This document shows positions 10,882-33,200 of a stretch of DNA of 64,000 nucleotides, piece by piece. The DNA is from Longimicrobiales bacterium (lineage in GTDB: Bacteria > Gemmatimonadota > Gemmatimonadetes > Longimicrobiales > Gaopeijiaceae): NCBI GenBank assembly GCA_965249725.1, contig CBDFMQ010000002.1:1344001-1408000 (forward strand). Direction: 5' to 3'. The notes under the pieces are model-generated. The model worked only from the letters and a program-made list of their open reading frames with translations. It searched no databases and was not told the DNA's origin. Positions within the stretch are counted from its first letter, which is position 1. The number at the start of each line of letters is the position of its first letter. A program made the translations under genes and the position numbers.

Positions 10882-10933
10882 TTGCTCTTCTTTTCTTTTC
10901 GAAGTACTTTGGATTTTCGGGTTTTCTTCGGTA
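10882..10933 (+). promoter_or_regulatory. sigma70-like promoter plus TTCGG-N6-TTCGG operator upstream of imuB
   Basis: TTGCTC (10882-87), 17 bp, TACTTT (10905-10); TTCGGGTTTTCTTCGGTA at 10916-10933. Confidence 0.6.
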
Positions 10934-10955
10934 TCCATTCCAGTCCGTTTTGTCC

Positions 10956-12305
10956 ATGTCAGAGCCCCGTCCTCGTGTGTATAGTGGTCCCACCCACCCG
11001 GCCGTTCGCGGGTGGGAGACCAGGGGCGCAACCACCACCCATCTCCGAGGAAGCCGCCAAGCCCTCTGTGCCTGGCTGCCCACCTTCGAGCTCCGGCTGG
11101 AGCTGGTTCGAAGCCCGGAGTTGGATACCACATCCGTGGCCCTCCTCTCCCCCGGCGAGAACACTCGGCGCACGGTCTGGCAGGTCTCCGAGCGAGCTTC
11201 CATCGCCGGCGTACGTCCCGGACAACTCATCTCCCAAGCCATCGCCCTCTGCCCTTCCCTCACTCTCCTGGAACCCGATCCGGCCCACTACGACACGGCT
11301 CAAGAGGAGCTTCTCGAGACGCTTTCGAACCTGAGTCCCATCGTGGAGCCGGCCGGTCGCGGAAGGGTCTTCGTAGGAATGGACGGCCTGGGACGGCTCT
11401 ACGGATCCCCGCCGCGCCAGGTGGACCGAGTCCTCGGAGCGCTCCTCACCATCTTCCCCCGCCCACTGGTGGCCGCCATGAGAATGGGATGGGCCCCGGG
11501 AAAGTTCGGGGCCTGGGTGGCCGCAGCCGGAGCGGGGCCCGGACAGCCCGTGATCGTGAGAGACGAGGAGCTCCTTTCCTTTCTTGGTCCCTGCCCCGTC
11601 TCCGTCCTCCCGGTGGATACGGTGATCGTCGAGCGACTCGAACGACTCGGGGTCGAGACACTGGACGACCTGATCCGTCTCCCGACGCCGGCTCTTGTCG
11701 GCCAATTCGGGTCGGACGGTCGAAAGGCCCGGGAATGGGCCACCGGCAAACGCATCGATTCCGTGCAGCCGAATCATCGACCTCGACCGATCCGCTCTTC
11801 CCTGGACTTCCACACTCCTGTGGGGCAGGTGCAGACGCTCCACGGTGCTCTAGACCGCCTCCTCGAGCGGGCGCTGGCCCGCCCGGAGCGTCAGGGTCGG
11901 AGCATACAGGGTGTCGGCTTGGCCGCTCGACTCGAGGGTGGGAGCTCGTGGTCCATGGAAACGGTTCTTCGAGAGTCCACGGCACATCGTGAACGCATCG
12001 CGTTCGTCCTGAGGGCGCGGATGGCGCTGTCCCCTCCTCCCCGCGCCGTAGAGGCCCTCACCGTGGAGTTCTTCCAGTTCGGGCCGGCCACGTCCCAGAA
12101 CGACCTCTTCGATCGAGGGGAATCCAGCGGCAGAGAAGAGAGCGGACGGGAGCTGTCCGGGGGCATCATCCCCTCCGCCCTCCGAGAGGCCGTGCAGGAG
12201 CTCAAGCTGAAGCTCGGCTACTCCCCCCTCTACCGCGTCGTGGAAGTGGACCCCTGGTCACGGATTCCCGAGCGGAGGCATGCGCTGCTGAACTTCGAAC
12301 CGTGA
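10956..12305 (+). CDS. imuB: ImuB-like inactive Y-family DNA polymerase, lacking the C-terminal ImuB-C domain
   Basis: Y-family scaffold (GVRPGQLISQAIALCP, LSPIVE, LERLGVETLDDL) without the N-terminal catalytic Asp (CAWLPTF); clamp motif QNDLF; ends at DPWSRIPERRHAL. Confidence 0.85.
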   Translation: MSEPRPRVYSGPTHPAVRGWETRGATTTHLRGSRQALCAWLPTFELRLELVRSPELDTTSVALLSPGENTRRTVWQVSERASIAGVRPGQLISQAIALCPSLTLLEPDPAHYDTAQEELLETLSNLSPIVEPAGRGRVFVGMDGLGRLYGSPPRQVDRVLGALLTIFPRPLVAAMRMGWAPGKFGAWVAAAGAGPGQPVIVRDEELLSFLGPCPVSVLPVDTVIVERLERLGVETLDDLIRLPTPALVGQFGSDGRKAREWATGKRIDSVQPNHRPRPIRSSLDFHTPVGQVQTLHGALDRLLERALARPERQGRSIQGVGLAARLEGGSSWSMETVLRESTAHRERIAFVLRARMALSPPPRAVEALTVEFFQFGPATSQNDLFDRGESSGREESGRELSGGIIPSALREAVQELKLKLGYSPLYRVVEVDPWSRIPERRHALLNFEP

Positions 12306-12322
12306 TGGATCTCCGGGGTCGG

Positions 12323-12521
12323 CTAGTTGACCGTCGCCGGATCCACCCTCGACGGCGTCGCCGCGCCAGAGATCATGGTCTCTGCACCCATCGCGATGGC
12401 CTTGATGGCATTAGTCATGTGATCGAGGTCCAAGGTCTCAACGTGATCGGACACCTGATGATAGTCCTGGTCGACGTCGCGGGGCAAAGCAACGAGCCGG
12501 TGCCGTGCGGAGCGAGGTCAT
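12323..12521 (-). pseudogene. Remnant of an M28-family peptidase (RBS+start joined out of frame to the last 51 codons)
   Basis: 12478->12323 reads DVDQDYHQVSDHVETLDLDHMTNAIKAIAMGAETMISGAATPSRVDPATVN*, with the M28 YHxxxD motif; GGGGAGA RBS plus ATG at 12521 in another frame. Confidence 0.65.
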
Positions 12522-12693
12522 GGTTCTCCCCTGATCGAAATGGGCATCTAAGGTTCCGCGGTCCCGCGAGCCATCGAGCCGGAGTCCCACGGCGGATCTG
12601 GACCTAGACGAGGCACGCCTATCCGGCGTCACATCGACTTTGTTGTCCTTCCGCCGCATGGAACTGTTCGGCACGTGAGACGATAGAGATCCC

Positions 12694-13659
12694 ATGACAT
12701 CCCTCAAGGCTCTCACCCTGCTTGTGGCCACGACAGTCGGCTGCTCGGCCGGCGACACTAGCCCGGGGATCGCGGAGCCGGTCACTCCACTTGGCTCCCT
12801 GAACGGACGTATCATCACGTCCGAGCTCCTCAGTGGATCCTGCGAGACTACGTCCCGGATCATCAGCTACGCCCCGGACGGAACCGATCCGCTGGTCCTG
12901 GTGGCCTCGGGTTCGAACGTCATGCCGGCCGCCGCTCCGGACGGTTCGACGATCCTCTACAGCTCATGCGTCGGAGCCGCCAGGGAGATCTTCGCCATGG
13001 ACAGCGACGGTGCGAATCGGCGCCAGCTCAGCTTCGACAGCGAGGGGGGTGGCAACTTCACACCCATCTACTCACCCGATCAGCAGCGAATCGCGTTCAC
13101 CGCCGCGCGGGGCGGTGCCAGCCCGGAGGTGTGGGTCATGAATGCCGACGGCACCGGGGCCATGAGACTGACCGAAACACCGGCGGCGCTCCCGGGCCAG
13201 CAATTCGTCTGGAGCCTGCATCCCACGTGGTCGGCCGACGGCCTGAGGATCGCCTACGCCTCGACCGCCAGCGGCAGCACACAGATCTGGATGATGAACA
13301 GCGACGGCACGGACCAGCGACAACTCACCTCCGGGCTGGGACCGGACTATCCCGATGCGAACGTCCCCCACTGGTCCCTGGACGGATCGAGGATCGCCTT
13401 CTGGTCGGGATTCGAAGGTCAGTACGGAGACGTTTGGACCATGGACCCGGATGGCTCGAACCCGATTCGCATCACGGACTCACCGGACCAAATCAACAAC
13501 GACGATCCTCACTGGTCGCCGGACGGCACCAAGGTCGTCTTCGGCCGCGGAGGACCTGGTCGGCCGCGGTCCATGTGGGTTATCGACGTCGAGACGGGAG
13601 AGGAGTCGGAGATCATCACCGGGGTGCAGTGGGCCGATTGGCAACCGGCACACGAATGA
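12694..13659 (+). CDS. TolB-like PD40 beta-propeller lipoprotein
   Basis: Lipobox-like TVGC; repeated PxWSPDGxxIxF and IWxMNxDGTxxRQLT blades. Confidence 0.88.
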   Translation: MTSLKALTLLVATTVGCSAGDTSPGIAEPVTPLGSLNGRIITSELLSGSCETTSRIISYAPDGTDPLVLVASGSNVMPAAAPDGSTILYSSCVGAAREIFAMDSDGANRRQLSFDSEGGGNFTPIYSPDQQRIAFTAARGGASPEVWVMNADGTGAMRLTETPAALPGQQFVWSLHPTWSADGLRIAYASTASGSTQIWMMNSDGTDQRQLTSGLGPDYPDANVPHWSLDGSRIAFWSGFEGQYGDVWTMDPDGSNPIRITDSPDQINNDDPHWSPDGTKVVFGRGGPGRPRSMWVIDVETGEESEIITGVQWADWQPAHE

Positions 13660-13823
13660 CCCCCCGCGGGTCTTCTCGACTGGCCCCCCCCGCCATACCG
13701 CTATCGCGTGAACACCTGGGTTGTAGCAGGCCGGGTCTCTATCATCGCGACAAGCTCACCTCACACCTAAATTGAGTAGTAGCAGCTACATGACAGACGG
13801 CCACGACATGGGGAGGCCGAAAA

Positions 13824-14396
13824 ATGACGGTTGCCGATCCGATCGCGGTCGACTTCGAGTTCACACCCGAGGACTGGGCCAGAGCCAATGCCACGCACTC
13901 GTGGAACTCCGAGTTGACCAAGAAGGCGCTCACGCAGATGCAGGTGTTGTTCGGTGTGATCGTGTCGCTCATGGCCGTGTTGCTCCTGCTGGGCGGCACG
14001 GCCGTAGGTGCCGTTGCCATGTTGATCGCCGGCACTCTCTTGGTCGGTGTACTCAAGCCTCTGGTCCGTCACTCTCAGAAGCGCCAGATCAAGAAAGTCG
14101 CCGATGTCGGGCTCATCAACGGCATCTTCGGACCTCATCATGTCGAGCTGCGCGAAGAGGGCATCCTGGATTCGACGACCGGATACGACTGGCTCGTGAA
14201 GTGGAGTGCCATCGAGGACATCAAGGAGTCGGACGGGTCCTTCCTCATCTACTCGGGCGCCAACTCGTTCTTGACGATCCCCTCCTCGGCGTTCCCTGAC
14301 ACCGAGACGCTGCGAGCCTTCGGTGACCGCTTCTTCCAACGCCTCGGGCAGGTCGAGACCGCGCTACCGCCGGGCGACGAGGGATTCGAAGAGTAG
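13824..14396 (+). CDS. YcxB-family membrane protein
   Basis: Two N-terminal TM helices then ELREEGI...KWSAIEDIKES...FLIY...IPSSAF pattern; GGGAGG RBS. Confidence 0.78.
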   Translation: MTVADPIAVDFEFTPEDWARANATHSWNSELTKKALTQMQVLFGVIVSLMAVLLLLGGTAVGAVAMLIAGTLLVGVLKPLVRHSQKRQIKKVADVGLINGIFGPHHVELREEGILDSTTGYDWLVKWSAIEDIKESDGSFLIYSGANSFLTIPSSAFPDTETLRAFGDRFFQRLGQVETALPPGDEGFEE

Positions 14397-14457
14397 CGAA
14401 CAGCTCTTTCCTCGATCTGCGAGACCCAGGGTACGCCCCATTTATCCCATATTTGAA

Positions 14458-14491
14458 TTGCATCGCCCGTACTTTCGGTTTATATTCGGTT
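14458..14491 (+). promoter_or_regulatory. sigma70-like promoter overlapped by TTCGG-N6-TTCGG operator
   Basis: TTGCAT (14458-63), 17 bp, TATATT (14481-86); TTCGGTTTATATTCGGTT at 14474-14491. Confidence 0.72.
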
Positions 14492-14516
14492 TCCGTACAT
14501 ACCGTAACACCGAGAC

Positions 14517-14828
14517 GTGATGAACCCTCCTATTCCATCGTCCAGCGGTGCCAATAACGGGCGACCGAGCAGACTTCGACGGCAGAAGCTGCGTCCGTTG
14601 AGGTCTCCCTCTCCCATCCAGGTCCGGATTGACGATGATGGGCTTCCCGCCGAGTTGCACCGACGCGGCAGGCGATTCCGAGTTGTGGCAGTGCGAGAGC
14701 GTTGGAGGATCGACGACGAGTGGTGGCGCACCCCCATCTCCAGGGAATACTTCGCTCTCGTTCTGGAAGACGGACGGCCTATCATCCTCTTCCGAGACCT
14801 CGTGGCCGGGGGATGGTACGGACAGTGA
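14517..14828 (+). CDS. Stand-alone ImuB C-terminal-domain (DUF6504-like) protein
   Basis: LRPLRSPSPIQV...ERWRIDDEWWR...REYF...LFRDLVAGGWY matches the recalled ImuB C-terminal EWW/RDYY pattern. Confidence 0.75.
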   Translation: MMNPPIPSSSGANNGRPSRLRRQKLRPLRSPSPIQVRIDDDGLPAELHRRGRRFRVVAVRERWRIDDEWWRTPISREYFALVLEDGRPIILFRDLVAGGWYGQ

Positions 14829-14838
14829 CGATTCTACA

Positions 14839-15537
14839 GTGAAGATCCTCCGAATCCACCTCGCCCCGAAGAAGAGAGATCGGGTTCTGGTGCACATCGA
14901 GGGGCGGGAGCCACTCGAGATCGCCCTGGACGTCATGGATCGATCGGGAATTCATGTGGGCACCGAACTGGAGCCCGCGGATCTCGCTCGACTGCAGGAG
15001 GACGACGCCAAATGGCGCGTTCGCCAGGCCGCGCTTCATCTCCTCTCGTATCAGCCACGCGCCGAGCAGGAGCTTCGCACGCGGCTCCGAGCCAAGGACC
15101 ATCCCCCTGCCCTGGTCGAGTGGTGTATCCACCTCTTGCGAGAGCAGGGGTTCCTGGACGATGCGGCCTTTGCGGCCGCCTTCGCCCGCAGCCGCATCCG
15201 ACTTCGTCCGCGGGGACGCTTCCGTCTGATGCAGGAGCTCAGACAAAAGGGAGTCCCGGGCGAGGTTGCCGACAAGGCCATCGAAAACGCGTTCTGCGAC
15301 GAAGAGACTTCGGAGCAGAGGCTCGCCTCAGAGGCGGCACAGAAGTGGATCGAGCGTCAGAGTCGAACGGTGGCCGAGGCGCTCGCGGCGAACGATCGCT
15401 CCCCGGAGCGGGAACGTGGACGACGCCGTCTACACGCCTTCTTGAGTCGGCGCGGCTTCGCATCCGACGCCATCAACTCGGCTCTGACGGCAGCCTTTGA
15501 GCGAGCCGCCGATCTGTGCGTTCCCGAGGCGAGCTAG
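14839..15537 (+). CDS. recX: RecA regulator RecX
   Basis: ALHLLSYQPRAEQELRTRL, GFLDDAAFA, ELRQKGV, FLSRRGF; GTG start 10 bp after the upstream stop. Confidence 0.9.
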   Translation: MKILRIHLAPKKRDRVLVHIEGREPLEIALDVMDRSGIHVGTELEPADLARLQEDDAKWRVRQAALHLLSYQPRAEQELRTRLRAKDHPPALVEWCIHLLREQGFLDDAAFAAAFARSRIRLRPRGRFRLMQELRQKGVPGEVADKAIENAFCDEETSEQRLASEAAQKWIERQSRTVAEALAANDRSPERERGRRRLHAFLSRRGFASDAINSALTAAFERAADLCVPEAS

Positions 15538-15563
15538 CCCGGCCCGCCTCCGAAAGAGGCGGA

Positions 15564-18500
15564 CTAGCCCGCCCGAGCCTCGGAGTCTTCGTCCCGCATC
15601 TCCTGGAGCGCGTCTCGGATGCCCTGCGTCAGATCCCTCTCCTGGCGCAACTGGACCAGTAGCCGCTCGGCCTCCTTGGCCTCGTATGTGAGCTGCCCGG
15701 ACGTCGAAATGACCTGGTCCACGACGGCCTTCTGACTGCGCAGCGACTCGAGCCCCGCCCGAATGTCCATGAGCAGACCGTCGGCGCGAGCCAGACGCCC
15801 CTCGGCAGCCTCGACCTGCTCTTGGCGCCGATCGATCGTATCCAGCACTTCGGTCATCTCTTCGGCCTTGGCACGGAGCACTACGAGGTTCTCGCTGGCG
15901 GTCTGTACCTCGTCGGTGGCCGCCGAGATGGCCCGCACGTCCTTCAGCGTGTTCTCGGCACGGGCGAAGAGGTCCTGAACCTCGTCGCGCACCTGATCGA
16001 TGCTCCCCTGTCTCGCGATCAGCGTCTCGACCGAACGGCCGAGCTCCGCGAGCTTCTCTTCGAACTGCGTGATGCGCTTCTCAGCGAACTGCAGGCTTCC
16101 GGCGCGCGCTTCAAGGAGTTCAGCGCGGTTTCCTACCTTGGCGGACTGCTCCTCCGCCTGCGCCAGGTGTTCGCTGACCGAGCGCAGCTGGTCCTCGAGT
16201 GATTGAACGACGTCGCCCGCCTCCTGCCGCAAGCTGGCTACCCGATCGAGGTGCTCCATCGCCTTGTCGAGAGCCTGCTGACGCTGTCCAATATCGGCCG
16301 CCACGCGGTCGACCCGTTCGGACAGCGACTTGATGTACTCGGCTCGCTCCACCGACGCATCGACGCCCTCTCCCAACTCCTCCATACGGTTCTCCGCCTT
16401 CCGAACGGAGGCCGTGACCTCTTCGATCACACTTCGCACCTCGTCCGCCGCGTTGGCCTGCACCGCCACCGCCTCGAAACGGCGGTCGGCGTCGGACAGG
16501 CTCGCGAGCAGGTTGCTCGTCCGCTCGTCGAGTTGGGCGCCGATCTCCCTCAACTCCGACATGCGATTGTCGAGCTCGGTCAGCGTCGGTTCGCGTTGCT
16601 CCAACTGATAGGCGGCCGCGATGACGCGATCGGCGTTCTTCCGCATGTGGTCGACGTTTGCCGTGAGGTCGTCCAGCTGTGCCATCCTCTGGCGGAGTTC
16701 GCCGATGGACTCCTGCGCCGTGGCCAGCCACGCACCGGTTTCCATCTGACCCGCCTGCATGCGCTCGATCTCGGCTCGGGTGGCACGGAGACGCTCGAGG
16801 GCGTTCACGACCTCCTCGTGAGAGCCTCGGAGAGTCGTGAGATCCCGGACGGCATCCTGCACTTCGGCTTCACGCGCTTCGATGCGCTCGAGCCGGCTGG
16901 CCACCTCGATCGCCGACGCTTCCGCTCTCGTCATCCCTTCCCTCATACCGGCGACCAACTCGACCTGTTCGCTGAGTTGATCGAGGTGAGAAGACAGCGA
17001 CGTCAGGCGTCCGGCCAGGTGATCGCCCCTACGCGTGGCCTCACTGACACGCTGGCTCGCTTCATCGAGCGCACGGAAGCGACCCTCGAATTCGGTCACG
17101 CCGCCACGCAGATCGGTGATCCGGTGGTCGATGGCCGCGAGGTTGGCCTGTCCGAGCTCGTAGCTCTGCGTGCTGGTACGCACCTCCTCCTGCAGGCTGA
17201 CCAACGACGCTCGGAGCTCCTTGTCCTCCGCTCGAATCCTGGTCTGTCCGGCCCGAAGCTCCTCCGACTGTTCGGCCACCTTCGAGTGCAGCTTCCGCAG
17301 TGATGCAACGCTGGCGTTGACCTTCTTCACCTCTTTGACCTGCCCCTTCGCCTCCTTGAGCTTCGACTCCAGCTCCCAGTGGAGGTCGGTGAGGGCGCGA
17401 GCCTGTGCCTCCGTCCGATCGATGGCCTCACGCTGGCGTTCCAAGGCGGCGGTCTTCTGGCTCACGTGGTCCGAGAGACCCCGCAGCGCATTGAGTTGGC
17501 GCTCCGTGCGACTCGCCAACTCCTCCGCTTTGGTGAGGTCCTGCATGGTGTTCTCGACACTGGCCACCCGGTTGCTGGCGTGTTCCACACCCTTGTCCAG
17601 AGCATCCATCTTGGACTGGAGCTCGGCGTACCGAGACAGGAGAGCCTCTTGGGTACTGCGCGCGTCGGACTGGTCTTCCTTGATGCGGGCGACGTCTTCG
17701 CTGTAGTCCAGAGACTTGGCCCTCGCCTCCTCGACTTGTGCGCGGAGCTTGGAGAGGGCACCCGATGGCCCGGCGATATCGGCGATCTCCTGGCGGGCCA
17801 CCGCCACCGACTCGACACCCTTGTTGAGGTCGGCCACCCGCGCATCCAGATCTTTGACCTCTCCCGAGGCCGACTGTATCGCGTTCAGCGCGGTCTGCTG
17901 ATTGGCGGCGACGGAGTCGGTCTTCCTGCTGATCTCCTCCACCCGCCCTTCGAGCTGACCGAGATCGAGCGTACGACCCTCGATGCGGGCGAGCTCCTCT
18001 TTCAGTTTTCCGAACTCCTTCTGCACGATGGAGAGGCCCCCATTCGGCCCCAGGAGTTCCGACATGACCGCGCGGGCATCGGACACCTTCTCCACCTCCA
18101 CCTGCAATTCGGTTACCTGACCCTCGAGCCGATTGGCCGAATTCGTGCCTCTCGTCACGGTGTCGGCGAGCTCCTTCTGAGAAGCTCCGATCTCCGCGAT
18201 CTGGCCCTCTACCAGATCCAACTGCGCGGAGGTCTCCTTTAGAGCAGATCCACGATCCTGCATCTGCTGCAGCTCCTCGCGGAGCACGTTCACCCGCTTG
18301 AGCAGTGTGGCGACGGTGCCGTACGGCCCGGCCATCTCCGTGAGGTCGTCGCGCGCCGTGACGATCTCGTCCACCATGGAGCGGATGTCTCGGACCTGCA
18401 TCTTCAGATCGCTGACCCTCTTCGAGGCATCGTCCAAGGTGGTCGCCGACTTGCTCTGGGACTCGATAAGCTCCTTGGCCCGTCTCTCGACGGAGTCGAC

Positions 18501-18770
18501 CTGCTCCGACACGTCCGTGAACGAGTCGACACGCGCCTGGAGTTCCTTCACCCGCTGGGACATGGATTCCGCGCTCGCCTGGACAGCCGCCAACGGCCCG
18601 GACACGTCTTGGAGCGCCTGCTGTGCCTTCTCCGAACGCCTGAGCAGGTCCCTCAGCGCTTTCCGGTCTCTCTTGGCCTGCGCGAATATCTTCTGGAGAT
18701 CTTCGGGAAGCTCGGTGAGTTGGTTGACCTCTTCGCTTCCGCCGAAGAGCGACTTGATCCAGGACGCCAT
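15564..18770 (-). CDS. Very long coiled-coil protein (1068 aa), function unknown
   Basis: Near-continuous heptad-rich L/E/Q/A/R sequence with very few prolines; no Walker motifs or TM segment; GAGAGG RBS. Confidence 0.85.
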   Translation of the reverse strand: MASWIKSLFGGSEEVNQLTELPEDLQKIFAQAKRDRKALRDLLRRSEKAQQALQDVSGPLAAVQASAESMSQRVKELQARVDSFTDVSEQVDSVERRAKELIESQSKSATTLDDASKRVSDLKMQVRDIRSMVDEIVTARDDLTEMAGPYGTVATLLKRVNVLREELQQMQDRGSALKETSAQLDLVEGQIAEIGASQKELADTVTRGTNSANRLEGQVTELQVEVEKVSDARAVMSELLGPNGGLSIVQKEFGKLKEELARIEGRTLDLGQLEGRVEEISRKTDSVAANQQTALNAIQSASGEVKDLDARVADLNKGVESVAVARQEIADIAGPSGALSKLRAQVEEARAKSLDYSEDVARIKEDQSDARSTQEALLSRYAELQSKMDALDKGVEHASNRVASVENTMQDLTKAEELASRTERQLNALRGLSDHVSQKTAALERQREAIDRTEAQARALTDLHWELESKLKEAKGQVKEVKKVNASVASLRKLHSKVAEQSEELRAGQTRIRAEDKELRASLVSLQEEVRTSTQSYELGQANLAAIDHRITDLRGGVTEFEGRFRALDEASQRVSEATRRGDHLAGRLTSLSSHLDQLSEQVELVAGMREGMTRAEASAIEVASRLERIEAREAEVQDAVRDLTTLRGSHEEVVNALERLRATRAEIERMQAGQMETGAWLATAQESIGELRQRMAQLDDLTANVDHMRKNADRVIAAAYQLEQREPTLTELDNRMSELREIGAQLDERTSNLLASLSDADRRFEAVAVQANAADEVRSVIEEVTASVRKAENRMEELGEGVDASVERAEYIKSLSERVDRVAADIGQRQQALDKAMEHLDRVASLRQEAGDVVQSLEDQLRSVSEHLAQAEEQSAKVGNRAELLEARAGSLQFAEKRITQFEEKLAELGRSVETLIARQGSIDQVRDEVQDLFARAENTLKDVRAISAATDEVQTASENLVVLRAKAEEMTEVLDTIDRRQEQVEAAEGRLARADGLLMDIRAGLESLRSQKAVVDQVISTSGQLTYEAKEAERLLVQLRQERDLTQGIRDALQEMRDEDSEARAG

Positions 18771-18915
18771 CATTCCTCTCGATCGGGGTTCGTCGGGCTT
18801 CAGCGGGAATGTGTCACGGCTACTCGGAAAATACCATGCACCCTCCCCAATCGGCCAACCCGCCGCGGAAGGACGCGGTTGCGAGAGGCATCAGGCGCGG
18901 GCCACTCTTGACGCC

Positions 18916-19263
18916 ATGTCTCAAGCACTCACGGTGGAACAGGTCGAGGACCTACGTCAGGACCTCGAGCGAGAACTGCGCCGACTCCAGCGAAGCATCG
19001 GAGCGAGCGATCGCGCCAGCGAGGTCGTCGAGCTGGATCAGACGGCGGTAGGAAGGCTCTCGCGCATGGACTCCCTGCAGAACCAGAGCATGGCCAAGAG
19101 CCTGCGAGAACGGGAGGACGTGAAGCTCGCTTTGATCCTCGAGGCCCTGCAGCGAGTAGAGCAAGGCCGGTATGGACTCTGCACCGTGTGTGGGAATCCG
19201 ATCGAGATCGGGCGGCTCACCGTCTTTCCCGAGTCGCGGGAGTGCGCGGGATGCGGGGGGTGA
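18916..19263 (+). CDS. TraR/DksA C4 zinc-finger protein
   Basis: ALQRVEQGRYGLCTVCGNPIEIGRL...CAGC; helical hairpin with GRLSRMD tip. Confidence 0.88.
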   Translation: MSQALTVEQVEDLRQDLERELRRLQRSIGASDRASEVVELDQTAVGRLSRMDSLQNQSMAKSLREREDVKLALILEALQRVEQGRYGLCTVCGNPIEIGRLTVFPESRECAGCGG

Positions 19264-19363
19264 TCGTCAAGGAACGCACCCTTTTCGGGTCAGGTCGGTA
19301 GTAGGGCTGGGCATTCCTCTGACGACACGGGCGTGAGGCTGGCGGGGACTAGGAGGGGAGACA

Positions 19364-19960: not shown

Positions 19961-20001
19961 TCGACGGGGGACGGAGGGGGATCAGGCGACCCAGGGACCC
20001 C

Positions 20002-20829: not shown

Positions 20830-20884
20830 CGATTCCCCGCTGAGTTTCAGGCCCGCGCCCTGCCAGCATCAGAACCTGTGGGCA

Positions 20885-22129: not shown

Positions 22130-22135
22130 AGGCCG

Positions 22136-24105: not shown

Positions 24106-25363
24106 GTGCCGGACAGCGCGTCGGCCGGTGGTATCCGTACGGCTCGGATCGCCGGTAGAACGCCGCGAGTATGGAGGTGATCAACAGCCCAGCCGCACTC
24201 CACAGCGAGCCATCGAGCGAGTAGTCGGCCCGCAGGACCGGTCGCACGACGGCGCCGGCCATCGTGAAGTCGCCCCAGAGGTTGGAGAGATCAGGCGGGT
24301 AGTTGTGGAGCCAATAGAGGATCGGCACGGACAGGAGCGCCCCTGCTGCCAACGCGATGATGCCCAGGATCAGACCCTCATAGACCACCGTCAGAGCTAC
24401 CCGCGAGGGCCTCGCACCCAGTGCCCGCACCACCGCGAACTCGCGGCGACGCTCGAAGGTCCCCAACAGCATCGTGTTGGCGACCCCGAAAATGGCCATG
24501 ACGAAGACTATGCCGACGATGACGCCGTTCACGGCTTCGGCGAGGCTGGCATACTCCGCGAGCTCCGCCCGAAAGACCGTCCACGGCCTCGGCGCCACCG
24601 GATATCCGAGGCCACCCGCGACCGATGCCAGCGAATCGCTGACCGCGGGGGCACTCCATGGATCGACGAGAGACGCGGCCACCTCGTGCACCCGACCCTC
24701 CGGCATGGCCATAAGCTCCTGGAGTGATCGGATCGGAAGGACCACAAGGGATCCGTCGAGGCCGGCCATGCCGGTGTGGAAGATCCCGCTCACATAGTAC
24801 AGGTCGTTTCCCAGCGAGCCGTCGGAAGCCGGTGCGACGAGAACCACCTCGGCCCCGGGCTCGACCTTGAGCAAGTCGGCCATATCCCGCCCGATGTAGA
24901 TCTCGCGCGCTCGCGGAAGGGGGGCCCGACCCTCCTCGGCCAACGACAAGAGGCGAGTGACCTCGGCTTCCCGTACCGGATCCACCCCGACCAGGATACC
25001 CGCGACGGTCTCGTCTCCGGAACTCACCAGACCTCCGCCGTATACCCGGGGAGACGCCCCCACGACTCCGGGAACACCTCGAGCGATGCCGACCAGCTCA
25101 TCCACGTCGATGCCCTCTCGGCCACCCAGCGTCTCATACATACTACGCTCGGGATAGTAGTCCGGTGCGTGAATCTGCAGCTGTCCCGAGACCAGGTTGG
25201 TTCCCGTCTCGATCATCTCGGCCACCATGCCGTGCCAGATCCCGATCATGGTGACCGACGCCAGGTAGCCGAAGGTGAGAGCGGAGGCCGTGATGAACGT
25301 ACGCCGTCGGTTTCTCCACAGGTTCCGCCAGGCCAGCCTCCACCACACCCATCGATCCCCCAT
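24102..25363 (-). CDS. ABC permease, LolC/E-FtsX type; 1-nt frameshift near 24154
   Basis: LAWRNLWRNRRRT, NTMLLGTFERRREF. One extra C in the CC run gives the canonical FYPAIRAVRIPPADALSGT* with an ATGA overlap to the next gene. Confidence 0.88.
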
Positions 25364-25367
25364 CGAC

Positions 25368-26138
25368 CTACCTCTCGCGTCTGAGGTTCCGGAGGGAGAA
25401 GAAGTCCTCGTCCACTCCGATGTCGAACTCCAGCTCGTGGTAGCGGATCAGCGTAACCTCGCCCGGGTCGTCCGTCGGTTCAATGGTCATGACGGCGGGT
25501 ACCAACCTTCCGTCCATGACCTGGTACTCCGTGAACGTCATGGTCCGGACGAGTTCATCCGACTCATCGAAATAGCGCGCCCAGGTGGGCATCAGGTCGT
25601 CCTGACGGACCTGATAGGTGATCTTCCCCCAAACCACGGGCGCCTCCGGCCGCGGAAGTAAGAGGAACTCCCAGACCTTAACTCCCTCCCTCGTCCCCTC
25701 GAACTCGATTTCGATGGTGTAGTCATCGACGAGCGTGCTCTCTTTCACCAGATCATCGTTGGTGAAGTGGGACCCCATCCAGGACCCCATCATCATGGAC
25801 GACGGGAGCTTGATCGTGCGATCGACCCTCGGCAGGTAGTTCCAGACCTCCTGCCCAGCCCTCAGGGTGGCGGTGCCAGCCTCCTTGGCCGGGGTCTCGA
25901 CCCGAAGCAGCGCGTGGTCGGTGCCGAGCGACCACGCGCGCAGTGTGAGCGAGCGCTCCCAATGCTCCGTCCGGATGTCCATGGTAAACCGCGCTTCGCT
26001 CGATTCACCACGAAGGAGGCGGTCCACCTGATCGATGATGTCGCGGGCCGTCTGAGTCCGGGCCGGGACGGGTAGCGGCGCGCAAAGAGAGGCCGCCACG
26101 AATGCCGGAAGTAGGAGCCGGTGGGAGATAGGATTCAT
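25368..26138 (-). CDS. LolA-like outer-membrane lipoprotein-sorting protein
   Basis: Signal peptide; PAKEAGTATL, VWNYLP, SWMGSHFTNDDL, FFSLRNL. Confidence 0.85.
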   Translation of the reverse strand: MNPISHRLLLPAFVAASLCAPLPVPARTQTARDIIDQVDRLLRGESSEARFTMDIRTEHWERSLTLRAWSLGTDHALLRVETPAKEAGTATLRAGQEVWNYLPRVDRTIKLPSSMMMGSWMGSHFTNDDLVKESTLVDDYTIEIEFEGTREGVKVWEFLLLPRPEAPVVWGKITYQVRQDDLMPTWARYFDESDELVRTMTFTEYQVMDGRLVPAVMTIEPTDDPGEVTLIRYHELEFDIGVDEDFFSLRNLRRER

Positions 26139-26308
26139 AGCCGGTCGAGTAGAAGTTAGTCCGATCTTCGAAAGCTAGTCGAGGGTACCGTTCAACGGCT
26201 ACGGGAAGCCTACCTAGTTATTTCTACTCCGCCCCTCTCACCTGAGAGCCCGTCCCCCGACGCTACTCCCCCCTTGAACTCGACCCCGAATCGCAGGATC
26301 CTGAAGGC

Positions 26309-26872
26309 ATGAGCGAAGAAGCCGAGAGCCGACGCCGGGCCCCAGAGTGGCTCACGTGGAAGCGCGCGGAGCTGGTCCTGACCGTCGCGATCCTGGCGTT
26401 CGCCGGCTACCGGCTCTGGCCGCAGGTGTCGGCCGTTGTGGGGGTCGGCGGCCCTATCGGTACCGCACCCGAGGTGGTCTTCCAGAGCCCGGACGGCGAA
26501 CCCGTCGTGCTCGCGGACCTGGAAGGACAGGTGGTCCTGGTCAACTTCTGGGCGACCTGGTGCGGTCCATGCAAGCTGGAGATGCCGGGTTTTCAGAAGC
26601 TGTACGACGACAAGCGGGACCAGGGGTTCACGATCCTCGGTGTGTCGACCGATCGGGGTAGTTGGGGGGATGTCAGCACGTTCTTGCGAGAGCGGGAGAT
26701 CGACTATCCGGTCGTGCAGACTTCCGCCGCCGCGGATCGTGCCTTCGGCGGGATCAGGGCGATCCCGACCTCGTTTCTCATCGACCGTCAGGGCGTCATC
26801 CGTCACAGGATCTTCGGCTATATGCCGCCCCCTGCCCTTCGGATCGCGGTGAATCGGCTGCTCGCGGAGTAG
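26309..26872 (+). CDS. TlpA/ResA thiol-disulfide oxidoreductase
   Basis: N-terminal TM; LVNFWATWCGPCKLEMP; IPTSFLIDRQG. Confidence 0.93.
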   Translation: MSEEAESRRRAPEWLTWKRAELVLTVAILAFAGYRLWPQVSAVVGVGGPIGTAPEVVFQSPDGEPVVLADLEGQVVLVNFWATWCGPCKLEMPGFQKLYDDKRDQGFTILGVSTDRGSWGDVSTFLREREIDYPVVQTSAAADRAFGGIRAIPTSFLIDRQGVIRHRIFGYMPPPALRIAVNRLLAE

Positions 26873-26939
26873 GGCCCGGCTCTGAGAATGAGGGCCCGGA
26901 GCGGCCTCCTGCGGTCGTCCAGCGGTTGGCGACGACTTC

Positions 26940-27983
26940 CTAGAATCCGGCCGCACTCAACTCCCGCTTCACCACCGGTGCCACCTCGGTACCCAGCAAC
27001 TCGATGGCCCGCATGACCTTGTCGTGAGGGGTCGGCCCCACAGTGAGCTGGATCAAGCAGCGCTGGTGTCCGAAGATTTCGTGTTGGAACAGGATCTTAT
27101 CGATGATCTGCTGAGGACTTCCCAGGAACAACGCCCCGCTCAACTCGGCCTCCGCGTCGAACTGCGTGCGGCTGGCGGGAGGCCATCCTCGTTCCCGTCC
27201 GATGCGTGTCATAGTCTCTGCAAAGGGCGGAAACGCGATCTCGGCCGCATCGGCCGCGTCATCGGCGAGGAAGCCGTGGGAGTTGATGCTCAGCGGGAGT
27301 GTCTCCGGGTCGTGCCCGGCCCGTGATGCCGTGTCCCGGTACAGGTCCACGACCGGCTTGAAGCGCTCGGGTGCACCTCCGATGATCGCCAGCGCCATCG
27401 GTAGGCCCAGGGTGGCGGCCCGGACAACGGACTGAGGCGTCCCTCCAACGGCGAGCCAGACCGGGATCGGATCCTGCACCGGCCGAGGGTAGACGGCACG
27501 ATCGTCGATGGTCGGTCGGTGCTCTCCCGCCCACGTGATCCGTTCCTCCTCCCGCAACTTGAGCAGCAACTCCAGCTTCTCCGAGAACAACGCGTCGTAG
27601 TCCGAGAGGTCCTGCCCAAACAGCGGAAAAGACTCCGTGAACGATCCACGCCCCGCCATGATCTCCGCACGTCCACCGGAGATGAGGTCCACGGTGGCGA
27701 AATCCTGAAACACGCGCACAGGGTCGTCGGAGCTCAGCACCGAAACCGCGCTTGTGAGCCGGATTCTACTGGTCCGCGCCGCCGCCGCCGCGAGAACGAC
27801 CGCGGGGGCTGAGACGGCGTAGTCCGCCCGATGGTGCTCCCCGATACCGAAGACGTCCAGACCCACCTGGTCGGCCAGCTCGATCTCCTCGAGGACATGT
27901 GCGATCCGTTCCTCGACACCGAGCTGCCGGCCTGTCGCGGGGTCGAACGCCGTCTCGACGAACGAGTAGATGCCGATTTCCAT
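26940..27983 (-). CDS. LLM-class (luciferase-like) flavin-dependent oxidoreductase
   Basis: [35 protein letters not shown]. Confidence 0.93.
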
Positions 27984-28072
27984 GGGAAGGAACGTACTTG
28001 GAGTTCGTCACGACGGAAGGATGGTCGAGGTTGCGAGCGCCGCCGTGAACATGGCGCCCTGCACCGACAGCG

Positions 28073-30088
28073 TCAGCGCTCGATCAGCTCCTGGAAGCCA
28101 GGATGGTTACGGAGAGAAGCGAAGACGGGATGGGCAGCTAACTCCGCAGTCGTCGCGCCGGTGTTGCGGTCGAGGAGCAGCTGGAGGAGCTCCACCGCCC
28201 GTTCCGGTTCACCCGCTAGGGCGAAAATCTCAGCCGCCTGGTAATGGACACCGATCGCCGCGACTGCGTCGCGCGTGAAGGGCATCGCCGCCATCGCCGC
28301 CTCGGCCTGCTGAGCGGCGTCCTCGGCTCGACCGAGCGCCGTGTAGGCACGGCCCAGCGTGAGTCTCGCCCCGACTCGATTTGGCTCCTCCTCGACCAAG
28401 CTTGCCAGGCCAGTCGCCATCGAATCCCAAACCACCCGGGCCTCATCTAGGCGGCCGGACAACTCGAGGGTCACCGCGCGTCGATATGTGTTCCGCTGTG
28501 TATAGGGTCGGGCCAGAGCGACGTCGAAGTCCCCATCGACCAGGTCTGCCCACCACAGTCCCCCTTGCACAGTCCCGACAGAGGTATCCGGGTATTCCAG
28601 CACGGCGTTTCTCGCCCGCCTCGTATCGTTCCCATCGACGCTCATATAGAGGTCGCCGAGATATCCGTAGGCGGTGCGCTCGTTCGGCGCCAAGGCGATC
28701 GATCTTCGAAGAACGTCCTCGGCCTCTTGGAAGCGGCGCGCGTATATCGAGGTATGACCGAGGTCCTCGAGGAAGTGCCCGGAAAGCGGATCGAGGCGAG
28801 CTGCCTCCGCGAAGCTCTCGATCGAGCCCTCGAAATCATCCATCCGGCGCTTCACCGCTCCCAGCAGGTGATGCACCTCGGCGTCCCCTAAACCGTCCTC
28901 TTCCGCCCGCAATCCATAGTCGAGCGCCTTCTCGAAGTCACGCTCGACGGCGTAGTGGTAGTACCCCATCGCCACCATCGCCTGGGGCAGATCGGGCGCT
29001 AGCGATAGGCCCTTGGAAGCCGCTTCGAGGATGGCGGTCCGGTTCTCTGGACGGAAGCACGTGCTCCGGTTCTGGCAGTGTTCGCTCCGGGCCAGCGCGA
29101 GCCGCACATAGGCTTCCGTGAAGTCCGGATCGAGCTCGATCGCCTGCTCATACATCTGGAACGCCACCGTGAAGTCGTCGGATCGCGGGCCCGCGGCGAA
29201 GTAGCTGTTCCCTCGTAGAAAGAAGTTGTAGGCGTCCATGTCCTCGGTCGGGACGCCTGCCAACTCGGTCTTCTCGTCGGGAAGCAGTGTCGCGCTCAGG
29301 GCATCGGCAATGCGTTCCGCGATCTCCCTCTGCAGGTCGAAGATGTTCTTGAGCGTGTATGCCATCTGGTAGTTGTCGGCCCACAGGTGCTCGTCCGTCG
29401 ATGCGTCGATCAGCTGAGCGTTCACCCTCACCTGGTCGCCCGCGGCGACCACGCTTCCTTCGAGGATCGCGGCCGCACCCAGCTCCTGTCCGATGGCCCG
29501 GATGTCCTTCGTGGTCTCCTGATACTGCATCATGGAGGTTCGGGAGATCACACGGAGCGCTTTGATCTTGGACAGCCGGGTGAGCAGGTCGTCGTGCAGC
29601 CCCAGGCTGAGCGTCTTCGAATCCTCCTCGGCGCCACCGCTGGTGAAGGGGAGAACCGCGATGACGGGTCGATCCGCCTCCCCTTCCGCCATCGAGCCGC
29701 TCGTACCGGGTCCAGCGAGGAGCAGAAACGTGGCGACTACTCCCCATAGCGCGAACGCCGCTACCCCACCGGCCATCGCGTTCCGCCAGGTGAAGAGCTT
29801 CCCGGTCGTGGTGGGGCCGACCTCCATCGGCTCACTCTCGACCGCCTTATCCCGGTGCCCGTGGTCGTGTCCGAGGCCTTCCTGGATGAAGGCGGTGGCC
29901 ATGACGATCGGGAACCCGATCACCAGAAGCGCGACCGCCATGGCGGGAACCCAATTCGGCAACCCCGCACTGTCCGCCAGGGTCTGAACGACTTGAACGG
30001 CGATCCACGAGCCCGTCAGATAGATCGACAGCACCTGCCAAAGGGAGCGACGGTGGATCTCGCGGATCAGGCGTTTTGCTCGGGACAT
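28073..30088 (-). CDS. Membrane-anchored TolB-N-like/TPR protein
   Basis: Three N-terminal TM segments, IAVLPF...LRVISRTS...VRVNAQLID...HLWA domain, followed by TPR repeats. Confidence 0.85.
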   Translation of the reverse strand: MSRAKRLIREIHRRSLWQVLSIYLTGSWIAVQVVQTLADSAGLPNWVPAMAVALLVIGFPIVMATAFIQEGLGHDHGHRDKAVESEPMEVGPTTTGKLFTWRNAMAGGVAAFALWGVVATFLLLAGPGTSGSMAEGEADRPVIAVLPFTSGGAEEDSKTLSLGLHDDLLTRLSKIKALRVISRTSMMQYQETTKDIRAIGQELGAAAILEGSVVAAGDQVRVNAQLIDASTDEHLWADNYQMAYTLKNIFDLQREIAERIADALSATLLPDEKTELAGVPTEDMDAYNFFLRGNSYFAAGPRSDDFTVAFQMYEQAIELDPDFTEAYVRLALARSEHCQNRSTCFRPENRTAILEAASKGLSLAPDLPQAMVAMGYYHYAVERDFEKALDYGLRAEEDGLGDAEVHHLLGAVKRRMDDFEGSIESFAEAARLDPLSGHFLEDLGHTSIYARRFQEAEDVLRRSIALAPNERTAYGYLGDLYMSVDGNDTRRARNAVLEYPDTSVGTVQGGLWWADLVDGDFDVALARPYTQRNTYRRAVTLELSGRLDEARVVWDSMATGLASLVEEEPNRVGARLTLGRAYTALGRAEDAAQQAEAAMAAMPFTRDAVAAIGVHYQAAEIFALAGEPERAVELLQLLLDRNTGATTAELAAHPVFASLRNHPGFQELIER

Positions 30089-30187
30089 GGAGTCCTGGTC
30101 GGAATCGTGCAGCCGGGGGGTCGGATGCTCCGCCGAAGATGCACCGGCACGGGCCTAAGTAGCAAGGAATCATCGTCCGGATCGTCG

Positions 30188-30221
30188 TTGCACTTCGATT
30201 ATATTCGGTTTATGTTCGGTT
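30188..30221 (+). promoter_or_regulatory. sigma70-like promoter overlapped by TTCGG-N6-TTCGG operator upstream of dnaE2
   Basis: TTGCAC (30188-93), 17 bp, TATGTT (30211-16); TTCGGTTTATGTTCGGTT at 30204-30221 plus an extra TTCGA half-site at 30194. Confidence 0.72.
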
Positions 30222-30246
30222 CCTTCCCCAAACAAACACCGAAACC

Positions 30247-33200
30247 GTGTCCACACCTCCCTACGTCGAGCTCCACTGCCACTCCGGCTTCTCCTTTCTG
30301 GACGGGGCCTCCCATCCCGAGGAGTTGGTATACAGGGCTCTGGAACTGGGTTATCCGGCTCTGGCCCTCACGGATCACAACGGCCTGTACGGCTCGATGG
30401 AGTTCGCCCAATCCGCCCGGACGGAGGGGCTTCAGCCCATCACGGGGGCCGAAGTCACCATAGCTCTGGACATTCCGGGAGTGCCCCAGGGCCTGGACGG
30501 ACTCGACGAGGCCGATCCGGACGGTGATCCGCTCGTCCGTGGCTGCCACATGACCCTCCTGGCTGAAACCCCGGCCGGGTATGCCAACCTCTGCCGGCTC
30601 CTGAGTGAGGCGCATCTGGAGAGTGACCGCGGCCGCCCCACCCTTCCTCTCTCCTCCCTCTTCGCCCGCACAGAGGGCCTCATCGCCCTCACCGGGTGCC
30701 GGCAAGGCCCTCTCCTGGTCGCCCTCGAAGACAGCGTGGCGACCGCGGAGCTCCTGGCTCGACGTCTTCAGGGCGCTTTCGGATACGGAAAGCTCTTCGT
30801 CGAACTCCAGGACAATCAGGAGAAGGGGGACGGCTACCGGAACCGGAGCCTGGGCCGCCTGGCCGACCGCCTCGGCATCCCCGTGGTGGCTACCGGCAAC
30901 GTCCACTACCACCGCCCCGAGCGGCACCGGCTTCAGGACGTCTTCGTGTCGATCCGGAACCGCACCACGCTGAACGGATCTCACGCACAGAGGCGCGCCA
31001 ACGCGCGCTTCTACCTGGCGTGTCCTCGAGAGATGGCCAACCGCTTCCAGAGCCGCCCCGACGCCCTGGCCCACACGCTCGACATCGCGGAGCGGTGTGC
31101 CGCCTTCGACCTCACGAAGGACCTGGGCTACACCTTCCCCGACTTCGAGGGGAGTGACCGCGGAGGAGCACTCGAGACCCTGGCCGCGGTCTGCCTGACC
31201 AAGCTGGAGGAGCGCTACGGCGGCTCGAAGCTTGAAGACGAAGCTCGCGATCGGCTCCACCAGGAGCTCGCGCTCGTGGACCTCCACGGTCTGGGCGGCT
31301 TCTTCCTCGTCTACCGCGACATCATGGAGTTGGCGAGAGAGGTCGCGGCCGATATTCGGGGCACCGCCCCTCGGGCCAACGCAGGCCTACCTCCGGGGCG
31401 GGGCCGAGGATCGTCGGTCTCGTCCATCATCTGCTACCTCATCGGGCTCTCCCATGTCGACCCGGTCAAGACGGAGCTCTTCTTGGGACGCTTCCTGAAT
31501 GAAGCCATGCGGAGCGTTCCGGATATCGACCTCGACTTTCCGCGCGACATCCGAGAAGAGTTGATCCTGCGGGTCTACAAACGATACGGGAACGAGCACG
31601 CCGGCCTGGTATGCACCTTCCCCACGTATCGGATCCGCTCCACGCTGCGGGAGATCGGCAAGGCTTTGGACCTTCCGATGGGAGATCTGGAGAAGCTCTC
31701 GAAGCTGGCGGAGCGGCGCTCGGGCGGAGGACTCATGGAGGAGCTTCGCCGGCTGCCGGAGTTCCGCGAGAAGGCGGAATCACCCTCGTGGCAAGCGCTC
31801 TGTGAGTTGGCCGACGACATCAAGGGCCTTCCCCGCCACATCTCCCAGCATGTGGGGGGTATGATCATCTCCAGCCGACCGCTCGTGGAAATCGTCCCTC
31901 TGGAGCCGGCAGCGTGGGAGGGACGCGTTCTCTGCCAGTGGGACAAGGACTCCTGCGACGACGCGGGGTTCATCAAGATCGACTTCCTGGCCCTGGGCAT
32001 GCTGTCGCTGGTGGAAGAGGCGGTGGACCTCATCTCGGAGCGTCACGGCCAGGCGCCCGACCTCTCCCGCATCGACTTCGCCGATCAGGAGGTCTACGAG
32101 CGTATCTGCACGGGCGACACCATCGGCATGTTCCAGGTGGAAAGTAGGGCCCAGATACAGATGCTTCGGCGCGTTCAGCCCCGGAATCTGGAGGATCTGG
32201 CCGTCCAGGTGGCCATCGTCCGACCGGGACCCATCGTCGGAGGTGCGGTCAACCCTTACGTGCGCCGTAGGGAGTTGCTGCGCGAGAATCCAGACTTCCG
32301 CGTCCCATACGATCATCCTCTCCTGGAAGAAGCTCTGGGAGAGACGTTGGGGGTCATCATCTTCCAAGATCAGGTCCTTCAGGTCTGTCAGGCCTTGGCG
32401 GGGTTTTCGGACGGCCAGGCAGAGAGCCTCCGACGCTCCATGAGCCGAAAGCGTTCGAAGGAGGCCATGGACTCGCATTGGGACGACTTTCGGAAGGGAG
32501 CGCGGGAACGAGGGGTCGACGAAATCACGGCCCAGAAGGTCTTCCAGCAGGTGACCGCGTTCAGCGAATTCGGCTTTCCCAAGTCCCACGCCGCGGCGTT
32601 CGGCCTCTTGGCCTACCAATCGGCATGGCTCCGCTACTACTACGGTACCGAGTTCTACGTGGGCCTCTTCAACAACCAGCCCATGGGTTTCTACTCCCTG
32701 GACGCTCTGGGCCGCGACGCCCGGCGTCACGGAATCGGGATTCGCCTTCCGGATGTGAATCACAGCCTGGTGAAGTGCTCGGCCGAAGAAACCGATCTGA
32801 GGGTCGGGCTCGGTTTCGTGAGAGGTTGGGGCACCGACATTGCCGAGAAGGTCGTGGCGGAGCGAGAGCGGAACGGGCCGTTCGCTTCCCTAGCGGACTT
32901 CCTCAGACGGACGCCCGCGACTCTGAAGAGGCCCGCGGTCGAAAACCTCATCTGGGTGGGTGGCTTCGAGAGTTTTGGCCTCACACGGCGGCAACTTCTG
33001 TGGCAGGCAGGCCTCTGGTTGGGTCCCGAGGACGATGCGGAGCGAAGCGGTGGTCGGGACGACCATGCTCAGGCCGAGTTGAATCTCGACGATCCGTACG
33101 CATCAATCGCATTTCCGGGCCTCGAGGATACCGAACGGATGGTGGCGGAGTACCGCATGCTCCGCTTTTCCACGAACCTCCACCCCCTAGCCCTACTTCG

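What the first reader, a model, noticed from the sequence alone, without database searches (positions are those of the whole stretch)
10882..30249. Shared direct-repeat operator TTCGG-N6-TTCGG at three DNA-damage promoters: candidate SOS box for this lineage
Seen: TTCGGTTTATATTCGGTT (14474) and TTCGGTTTATGTTCGGTT (30204) are 17/18 identical; TTCGGGTTTTCTTCGGTA (10916) keeps both half-sites with the same 11-bp period. Each overlaps or directly follows a TTGC(A/T)x-17bp-TAxxTT promoter ahead of imuB, imuB-C/recX and dnaE2. I did not see it in other intergenic regions. The 14.5 kb and 30.2 kb leaders also share AACACCGA..CGTG up to the start codon. Known: these genes are typical LexA targets, and Alphaproteobacteria and Acidobacterium LexA bind an 11-bp-period direct repeat (GTTC-N7-GTTC). 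Inference: a related but distinct repressor box; I do not know of it being defined for this group.
Basis: partly seen in the sequence, partly recalled or inferred. Interest (0 to 1): 0.82.

Follow-up and report, generated by a model that had tools for sequence, protein, structure and literature searches.

The report
Gemmatimonadota LexA SOS box
A short repeated DNA word (TTCGG twice, 11 bases apart) sits in front of three error-prone-repair genes here and of lexA, recA and other repair genes across this bacterial class, and is very likely the docking site of the DNA-damage repressor LexA, a familiar kind of switch in a group for which I found no published site.

Summary
Confirmed. The three exact TTCGG-N6-TTCGG boxes overlap or follow sigma70-like promoters of imuB, a small DUF6504-like gene plus recX, and dnaE2 (3 found, 0.16 expected). 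The genome is a Gemmatimonadota (Longimicrobiales-like). The box also lies twice before its lexA, before recA (one mismatch) and between an AlkA-like and a PA0069-family gene. In relatives it precedes lexA in 144 of 145 upstream regions, recA in 21 of 23 and the radical SAM gene in 21 of 21, in either orientation. Its fifth base follows one LexA helix residue (E. coli Glu45 position): Glu with TTCGG, Lys with TTCGC (other classes of the phylum, Acidobacteriota). That rests on only about three tree changes, so it is not significant. No box at recN, uvrB, ruvA, uvrD or dinB. Best reading: the LexA operator of class Gemmatimonadetes (0.92); binding and induction are untested. No published Gemmatimonadota box was found, but the same box precedes two Patescibacteria-like lexA genes, so it may equal the published Patescibacteria motif (paper not held). 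This scan has noted it before: 17 findings in at least 16 other genomes. Solid, modest novelty.

The parts
10882..10910 (+). sigma70-like promoter of imuB (-35 TTGCTC, 17 bp, -10 TACTTT); predicted
   Evidence: sequence
10916..10931 (+). TTCGG-N6-TTCGG box over the likely transcription start of imuB
   Evidence: exact box at the imuB promoter of 7 of 8 close orthologues, the eighth has it ahead of the upstream radical SAM gene
10959..12305 (+). imuB-type Y-family polymerase homologue (448 aa)
   Evidence: PF00817 E 4e-13; ATG conserved in G224 and G288
14458..14486 (+). sigma70-like promoter (-35 TTGCAT, 17 bp, -10 TATATT inside the box); predicted
   Evidence: sequence
14474..14489 (+). TTCGG-N6-TTCGG box
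   Evidence: exact box at the same gene in G224
14520..14828 (+). 102-aa DUF6504-like ORF, the middle gene of the imuB-small ORF-dnaE2 cassette of relatives
   Evidence: weak PF20114 hit; directly behind imuB in 7 relatives and before dnaE2 in 4 of them
14839..15537 (+). recX (start codon uncertain), likely co-transcribed with the small ORF
   Evidence: three RecX Pfam domains; start from my own gene finder
30188..30216 (+). sigma70-like promoter of dnaE2 (-35 TTGCAC, 17 bp, -10 TATGTT inside the box); predicted
   Evidence: sequence
30204..30219 (+). TTCGG-N6-TTCGG box
   Evidence: exact box before the 4 stand-alone dnaE2 orthologues of the same family
   Evidence: exact inverted box in G224 and G259
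30247..33645 (+). dnaE2, error-prone DNA polymerase (1132 aa)
   Evidence: NF004225 951 bits, cut-off 939

Best explanation
TTCGG-N6-TTCGG is very likely the operator of the SOS repressor LexA in class Gemmatimonadetes, and the three window copies likely keep imuB, the small ORF plus recX, and dnaE2 switched off until DNA damage. Shown: the boxes lie on predicted promoters of these genes, of lexA (two boxes; the first fills the 17-bp space between -35 and -10) and of recA; the genome encodes a LexA with intact cleavage site and catalytic pair. Inferred: a LexA dimer covers two half-sites one helical turn apart and blocks RNA polymerase; RecA filaments on single-stranded DNA trigger LexA self-cleavage and release the genes; Glu44 of helix 3 reads the fifth base pair of each half-site. 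In relatives imuB, the small ORF and dnaE2 form one cassette with one box; here the cassette is in three pieces and each piece has its own box.
For: lexA: two exact boxes at C3:1443070 and 1443096, ATG at 1443138; LexA over the TIGR00498 cut-off with E44, A87-G88, S122, K160 aligned to E45, A84-G85, S119, K156 of solved LexA chains (that these chains are E. coli LexA is recalled). 144 of 145 distinct in-class lexA upstream regions carry an exact box, 129 carry two or more; TTG precedes the first box at the -35 position in 133 of 144. recA: 21 of 23 in-class with at most one mismatch (other spacers 1-5 of 23); radical SAM: 21 of 21 (20 exact; other spacers 1-5); both orientations occur, which fits an operator and not a promoter element. 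Background: exact 22, at most one mismatch 120 of 3570 genes. An unbiased dyad count on 44 recA and radical SAM upstream regions ranks this repeat first (41 of 44 for CGAA-N7-CGAA). A matrix trained only on relatives' lexA sites ranks the three window sites 3rd, 5th and 7th in the genome; its top 10 hits are all intergenic. Residue-base match: all 145 in-class LexA have Glu and none of their upstream regions has an exact TTCGC repeat; other classes have Lys, with exact TTCGC-N6-TTCGC in 11 of 15 and exact TTCGG in 0; metagenome loci: Glu 29 of 29 exact TTCGG; Lys 0 of 44 exact TTCGG, 8 exact and 31 one-mismatch TTCGC. Passages of bioRxiv 2020.07.14.201889 name E45 as a base-contacting residue whose change to Lys abolishes binding to the recA box. 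PMC3919608 (passages) describes dnaE2 as part of a LexA-regulated contiguous or split cassette.
Against: No binding or expression data. The genome-wide count of exact matches is not enriched (27 against about 21.5); only their placing is (15 of 27 intergenic against 2-7 for nine other spacers). No site with at most one mismatch before recN, the second uvrA, uvrB, ruvA, two uvrD-family genes, dinB (Pol IV) or one ssb; the first uvrA has a one-mismatch site inside the end of the upstream gene. recA lacks the box in 2 of 23 in-class genomes (both family f2) and lexA in 1 of 145. Some strong sites lie by genes with no repair role known to me (ADOP permease, IS6/serine recombinase). The Glu/Lys match involves only 3 changes on a 52-row tree and 1 independent pair on strongly supported branches (sign test p = 1); 3 of 15 outgroup and 5 of 44 metagenome Lys loci have no clear TTCGC box. 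Kin are not independent.
Confidence: 0.92

Rival explanations
1. The second LexA-like protein of this genome (C3:774600-775313), which lacks the catalytic Ser and Lys and so should not self-cleave, binds the box alone or as a mixed dimer, making the control damage-independent or tuned.
For: It scores just over the TIGR00498 cut-off (114 against 111 bits), keeps Glu at the same helix position and is present in 12 of 30 genomes searched, including 10 of 11 of the same order.
Against: No box before it here or before 11 of 12 orthologues (one 1-mismatch site at +4). Not found with this query in families f4 (0 of 5), f7 (0 of 2), f8 (0 of 1) and f9 (0 of 1), which all carry the box. Its helix 3 differs at several other positions. 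The box sits twice on the promoter of the cleavable lexA.
Confidence: 0.04
2. A different, unidentified damage-responsive regulator (repressor or activator) binds the direct repeat and controls lexA, recA and the mutagenesis genes.
For: Direct repeats are atypical for a symmetric LexA dimer (established knowledge; PMC7739468 calls the palindrome canonical). No binding was tested.
Against: The fifth base follows a LexA residue in Gemmatimonadota, Acidobacteriota-like and Patescibacteria-like loci; no palindromic alternative stands out before lexA; in three outgroup genomes lexA lies directly upstream of imuB and/or dnaE2 behind the TTCGC form; LexA proteins binding direct repeats are published.
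Confidence: 0.03
3. The repeat is only a conserved promoter feature or a chance word in GC-rich DNA.
For: Exact matches are about as many genome-wide as the pentamer frequency predicts, and one-mismatch matches are common in coding DNA (457).
Against: It occurs in both orientations at orthologous promoters, at different places relative to -35 and -10, with invariant half-sites around a variable spacer, and almost only with spacer 6.
Confidence: 0.01

Closest known systems
Alphaproteobacterial LexA box GTTC-N7-GTTC (passages of PMC8565304, PMC3323433); Acidobacterium capsulatum box (Mazon 2006, title seen in reference lists only; that it is the same motif is recalled)
   Same: Direct repeat, 11-bp period, shared TTC core, same kind of target genes.
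   Different: No required G before TTC; two more fixed bases after it (GG). GTTC-N7-GTTC fits 14 of 145 in-class lexA upstream regions and none of the three window sites.
Patescibacteria LexA motifs (Sanchez-Osuna, Barbe, Erill 2017, PMID 28618189; paper not held)
   Same: PMC7739468 cites it among papers on direct-repeat LexA motifs (passage). Two LexA genes whose named relatives are mostly Patescibacteria have an exact TTCGG-N6-TTCGG upstream and Glu at the same position. The motifs may be identical.
   Different: I could not read the published consensus. These LexA are only 44-45% identical to the query used and form a separate long branch.
Balneolaeota LexA direct repeat, consensus TTACACATATTTTWTACATA (PMC7739468, passages)
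   Same: Direct-repeat LexA operator found the same way (footprinting of lexA promoters) and then confirmed by EMSA; small regulon centred on lexA, recA, translesion polymerases and a radical SAM protein.
   Different: Unrelated half-site sequence; different phylum; validated in vitro, whereas this one is not.
LexA-regulated imuA-imuB-dnaE2 mutagenesis cassette (passage of PMC3919608)
   Same: imuB and dnaE2 under a damage-type operator; split cassettes are known.
   Different: No imuA found with NF033429 (only recA matched); a DUF6504-like ORF is the middle gene; the cassette is in three separately boxed pieces.

Membership tests
LexA operator (SOS box) | Genome encodes a canonical LexA with cleavage site and Ser/Lys catalytic pair | tested here: met
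LexA operator (SOS box) | Site in the lexA promoter (autoregulation), conserved in relatives | tested here: met
   two exact boxes; 144 of 145 relatives' upstream regions
LexA operator (SOS box) | Site before recA and translesion polymerase genes | tested here: met
   recA here and 21 of 23 relatives; imuB and dnaE2
LexA operator (SOS box) | Dyad with rigid spacer, placed on the promoter, independent of orientation | tested here: met
   promoters are predicted, not mapped
LexA operator (SOS box) | Site before uvrA/uvrB, recN, ruvA (typical but not universal members) | tested here: not met
   none before recN, uvrB, ruvA, second uvrA; doubtful site at first uvrA; operon starts further upstream were not examined
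LexA operator (SOS box) | Operator sequence changes with the LexA recognition helix | tested here: inconclusive
   no row contradicts Glu-G / Lys-C outright (one tie), but only 3 changes and 1 well-supported independent pair
LexA operator (SOS box) | Specific binding by LexA; RecA-dependent induction after DNA damage | not testable with these tools
   needs EMSA and expression data
Alphaproteobacterial box GTTC-N7-GTTC | G before TTC in both half-sites | tested here: not met
   14 of 145 regions; none of the three window sites
Patescibacteria direct-repeat LexA box | Same consensus as published | not testable with these tools
   paper not held; two Patescibacteria-like loci carry the identical box

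The most novel reading that the evidence does not exclude
Gemmatimonadota, Acidobacteriota and Patescibacteria share one family of direct-repeat LexA operators, TTCG(G/C)-N6-TTCG(G/C), read by a one-residue code (Glu gives G, Lys gives C) that has flipped several times, so direct-repeat binding in these phyla is one inherited mode and not a set of separate inventions; in Longimicrobiales the regulon has also recruited mraZ, the head of the cell-division cluster, and re-boxed each fragment of the broken mutagenesis cassette.
Probability: 0.35. Interest if true: 0.62.

Novelty: new member of a known kind. Interest (0 to 1): 0.42.

Why it matters
It gives the likely SOS operator and core regulon of a widespread, little-cultured phylum for which I found none in print, so damage-inducible genes (and integrases or prophages under SOS control) can be predicted in its genomes. 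The Glu/Lys against G/C pairing offers a clean bench test of how LexA reads its operator and how a symmetric dimer binds a direct repeat. It is not a new kind of system, the motif may already be published for Patescibacteria, and this scan has reported it many times.

Tried and rejected
Genome-wide count of exact matches as evidence: not enriched (27 against about 21.5), so only placing and conservation were used. One-mismatch sites as evidence on their own: 75 of 457 intergenic, no more than for other spacers (58-87); used only where conserved. Known boxes before in-class lexA: GAAC-N4-GTTC 0, CTGT-N8-ACAG 1, the Verrucomicrobia palindrome (pattern recalled) 1, GTTC-N7-GTTC 14 of 145. Expression: no RNA holder listed for window 29900-33600; no reads were laid. 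imuA: not found with NF033429. The careful 123-row tree did not finish; a quick tree was printed. A second viral-contig scan with the Patescibacteria-like LexA gave one new locus, with Tyr at the position and no such box in the 200 bp printed. Papers not held: Erill 2016 Verrucomicrobia, Sanchez-Osuna 2017, Erill 2006. A search for 'TTCGG' with 'LexA' anywhere was swamped by primers (16,748 papers, 30 listed, none evidently relevant by title). Cluster look-up for taxon names could not be made. No structure or complex was predicted: the tools cannot model protein with DNA.
Full report
Observation. The window holds exactly three exact TTCGG-N6-TTCGG matches, at 10916, 14474 and 30204, against 0.16 expected from shuffles. 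Each lies on a sigma70-like promoter with a 17-bp spacer: at 14.5 and 30.2 kb the -10 hexamer is inside the box, at 10.9 kb the box starts 5 bp after it. The genes behind are an imuB-type protein, a 102-aa DUF6504-like ORF followed by recX, and dnaE2.

Organism. The window is G000:C3:1344001-1408000. Named relatives of its LexA (66-92% identity) are almost all titled Longimicrobiales or other Gemmatimonadota. Family codes f1-f9 are the same class, f10-f12 other classes of the phylum (its tally includes the unpublished G157, on which nothing else here rests).

The genome. Exact matches number 27, about what the pentamer frequency predicts (21.5), so the count is no evidence. Their placing is: 15 of 27 are intergenic by my own simple gene finder (13% of the genome), against 2-7 for nine other spacers. 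Two exact boxes lie 68 and 42 bp before lexA. recA has one with a single mismatch. A matrix trained on 198 sites from relatives' lexA promoters puts ten intergenic sites on top: lexA twice, the three window sites, a site between an AlkA-like glycosylase and a PA0069-family radical SAM gene, and sites by mraZ, a DinB_2-family gene, an ADOP permease and a serine recombinase/IS6 pair; recA ranks 21st and a Cho/UvrC-like gene 23rd. PA0069 is named among the SOS genes of P. aeruginosa in a passage of bioRxiv 2022.03.14.484287. Against: nothing with at most one mismatch within 350-400 bp before recN, the second uvrA, uvrB, ruvA, two uvrD-family genes, dinB and one ssb; one-mismatch sites of doubtful weight at the first uvrA (inside the upstream gene) and the other ssb. 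The regulon looks small.

Conservation. lexA loci came (80; 29), 40 that I picked across families from the 150 matches listed; after dropping one locus without upstream DNA and collapsing duplicates, 144 of 145 in-class regions have an exact box within 200 bp and 129 have two or more. The first box fills the -35/-10 spacer: TTG six bases before it in 133 of 144, TA just after it in 127. In 24 in-class and 6 outgroup genomes picked across families: recA 21 of 23 with at most one mismatch (8 exact; misses G027 and G180), radical SAM 21 of 21 after dropping one duplicate locus (20 exact), with other spacers at 1-5; background is 0.6% exact and 3.4% with one mismatch. Both orientations occur: recA 18 sense, 3 antisense; radical SAM 7 sense, 12 antisense, 1 both within 300 bp. 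Of 22 distant dnaE loci (DnaE1 and distant DnaE2, not classified) 2 have an exact box upstream. Secondary candidates: Cho-like gene 9 of 20 loci, including 6 of 6 of the same family, two others overlapping the start codon and likely chance; mraZ 6 of 13.

The cassette. In G082, G063, G127 and G039, imuB, the small ORF and dnaE2 are adjacent, with a box before imuB (in G063 before the radical SAM gene upstream) and none directly before dnaE2. In G259, G285 and G288, dnaE2 stands apart with its own box. In G000 and G224 all three pieces stand apart and each has a box. The order of events was not tested.

Link to LexA. The LexA aligns to solved LexA chains with cleavage site, catalytic pair and Glu44 at the Glu45 position; passages of bioRxiv 2020.07.14.201889 describe E45 as base-contacting. 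All 145 in-class proteins have Glu there. The 15 outgroup proteins have Lys; 11 have exact TTCGC-N6-TTCGC, 1 has one mismatch, 3 have none, and none has exact TTCGG; their recA genes have no box (0 of 5). Of 80 metagenome loci (the scan pattern allowed only Glu or Lys), 5 were not parsed and 2 lacked upstream DNA: Glu 29 of 29 exact TTCGG; Lys 8 exact TTCGC, 31 one mismatch (mostly TTTGC in the second half), 1 tie, 4 none. One Lys-type protein has named relatives in Vicinamibacterales and Acidobacteria. Of 6 full-length LexA loci on viral contigs, the 2 with upstream DNA have Glu and exact TTCGG, and named relatives of one are mostly Patescibacteria. On a tree of 52 of 123 proteins (rows without a classed box and near-duplicates left out, trait residue masked) residue and base each change 3 times at the same places, but only 1 independent pair rests on strongly supported branches: suggestive, not significant. 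Glu pairing with the C opposite G, and Lys with the G opposite C, is chemically plausible (my inference).

Rival binder. A second LexA-like gene lacks the catalytic Ser and Lys. It has no box upstream here or in 11 of 12 orthologues and was not found with this query in four families that carry the box.

Literature. Searches for LexA with Gemmatimonadetes, Gemmatimonad and Gemmatimonadota listed 2, 6 and 2 papers, none about its SOS box by title and abstract start; PMC3919608 was checked by passages; PMC7739468 and PMC8565304 do not contain 'Gemmatimonad' in the main text. Their supplements were not opened and could bear on this. Published direct-repeat LexA boxes seen in passages: GTTC-N7-GTTC and the Balneolaeota repeat. 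The Patescibacteria paper and three related ones are not held, and the library lacks most subscription journals, so absence from print is not established.

Earlier notes. One search returned 17 findings in at least 16 other genomes with the same reading, 8 shown; my notes on the Glu/Lys match and the Patescibacteria link predate that look-up. They are AI notes and add no evidence. None exist for this genome.

Verdict. Real, conserved and very likely the LexA operator of Gemmatimonadetes; a new member of a known kind, with a testable one-residue recognition rule. Interest 0.42.

Noticed in passing
G000:C3:774600-775313 (L002:1432-2145); orthologues L434-L445: A conserved second LexA-like gene with intact DNA-binding domain but no catalytic Ser/Lys in this family; the two f3 orthologues still show both residues. 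No box upstream; role unknown.
   Followed up: partly
G000:C3:1501369 (L190:670-685); L421-L433: One-mismatch box about 106 bp before mraZ, present in 6 of 13 relatives (2 exact): possible SOS control of the cell-division cluster.
   Followed up: partly
G000:C3:643579 (L010:480, L203): Exact box between a large serine recombinase gene and an IS6 transposase: possibly a damage-inducible mobile element.
   Followed up: no
G000:C1:492279 (-), C2:5274 (+), C2:96642 (+): Three near-identical copies of a stretch with TTGACA shortly before an exact box with a GC-rich spacer; looks like a repeated element, one copy lies near an ORF resembling a DNA methylase.
   Followed up: no
L001:1274-1406 (G000:C3:1442914-1443046): A run of about ten imperfect 12-bp tandem repeats just upstream of the lexA promoter, between lexA and the divergent trpC-like gene; not seen in the closest relatives' 130-bp upstream regions.
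   Followed up: no
G006:C1:212674-217586; G009:C6:33556-38466; G012:C27:13282-18229: In outgroup classes lexA heads a lexA-imuB-dnaE2 type cassette behind a TTCGC box, while recA has no box.
   Followed up: partly
L063 / L113 (same record): The one in-class lexA without a box within 200 bp, in family f2, where both tested recA genes also lack it.
   Followed up: no
window 15564-18773 (-): A 1069-aa predicted coiled-coil protein convergent with recX; only weak, unrelated Pfam coiled-coil hits.
   Followed up: no
L389, L391 (IMG/VR contigs): Contigs held as viral carry Patescibacteria-like lexA beside a methylase or restriction-type gene; they may be host DNA or small mobile elements.
   Followed up: partly
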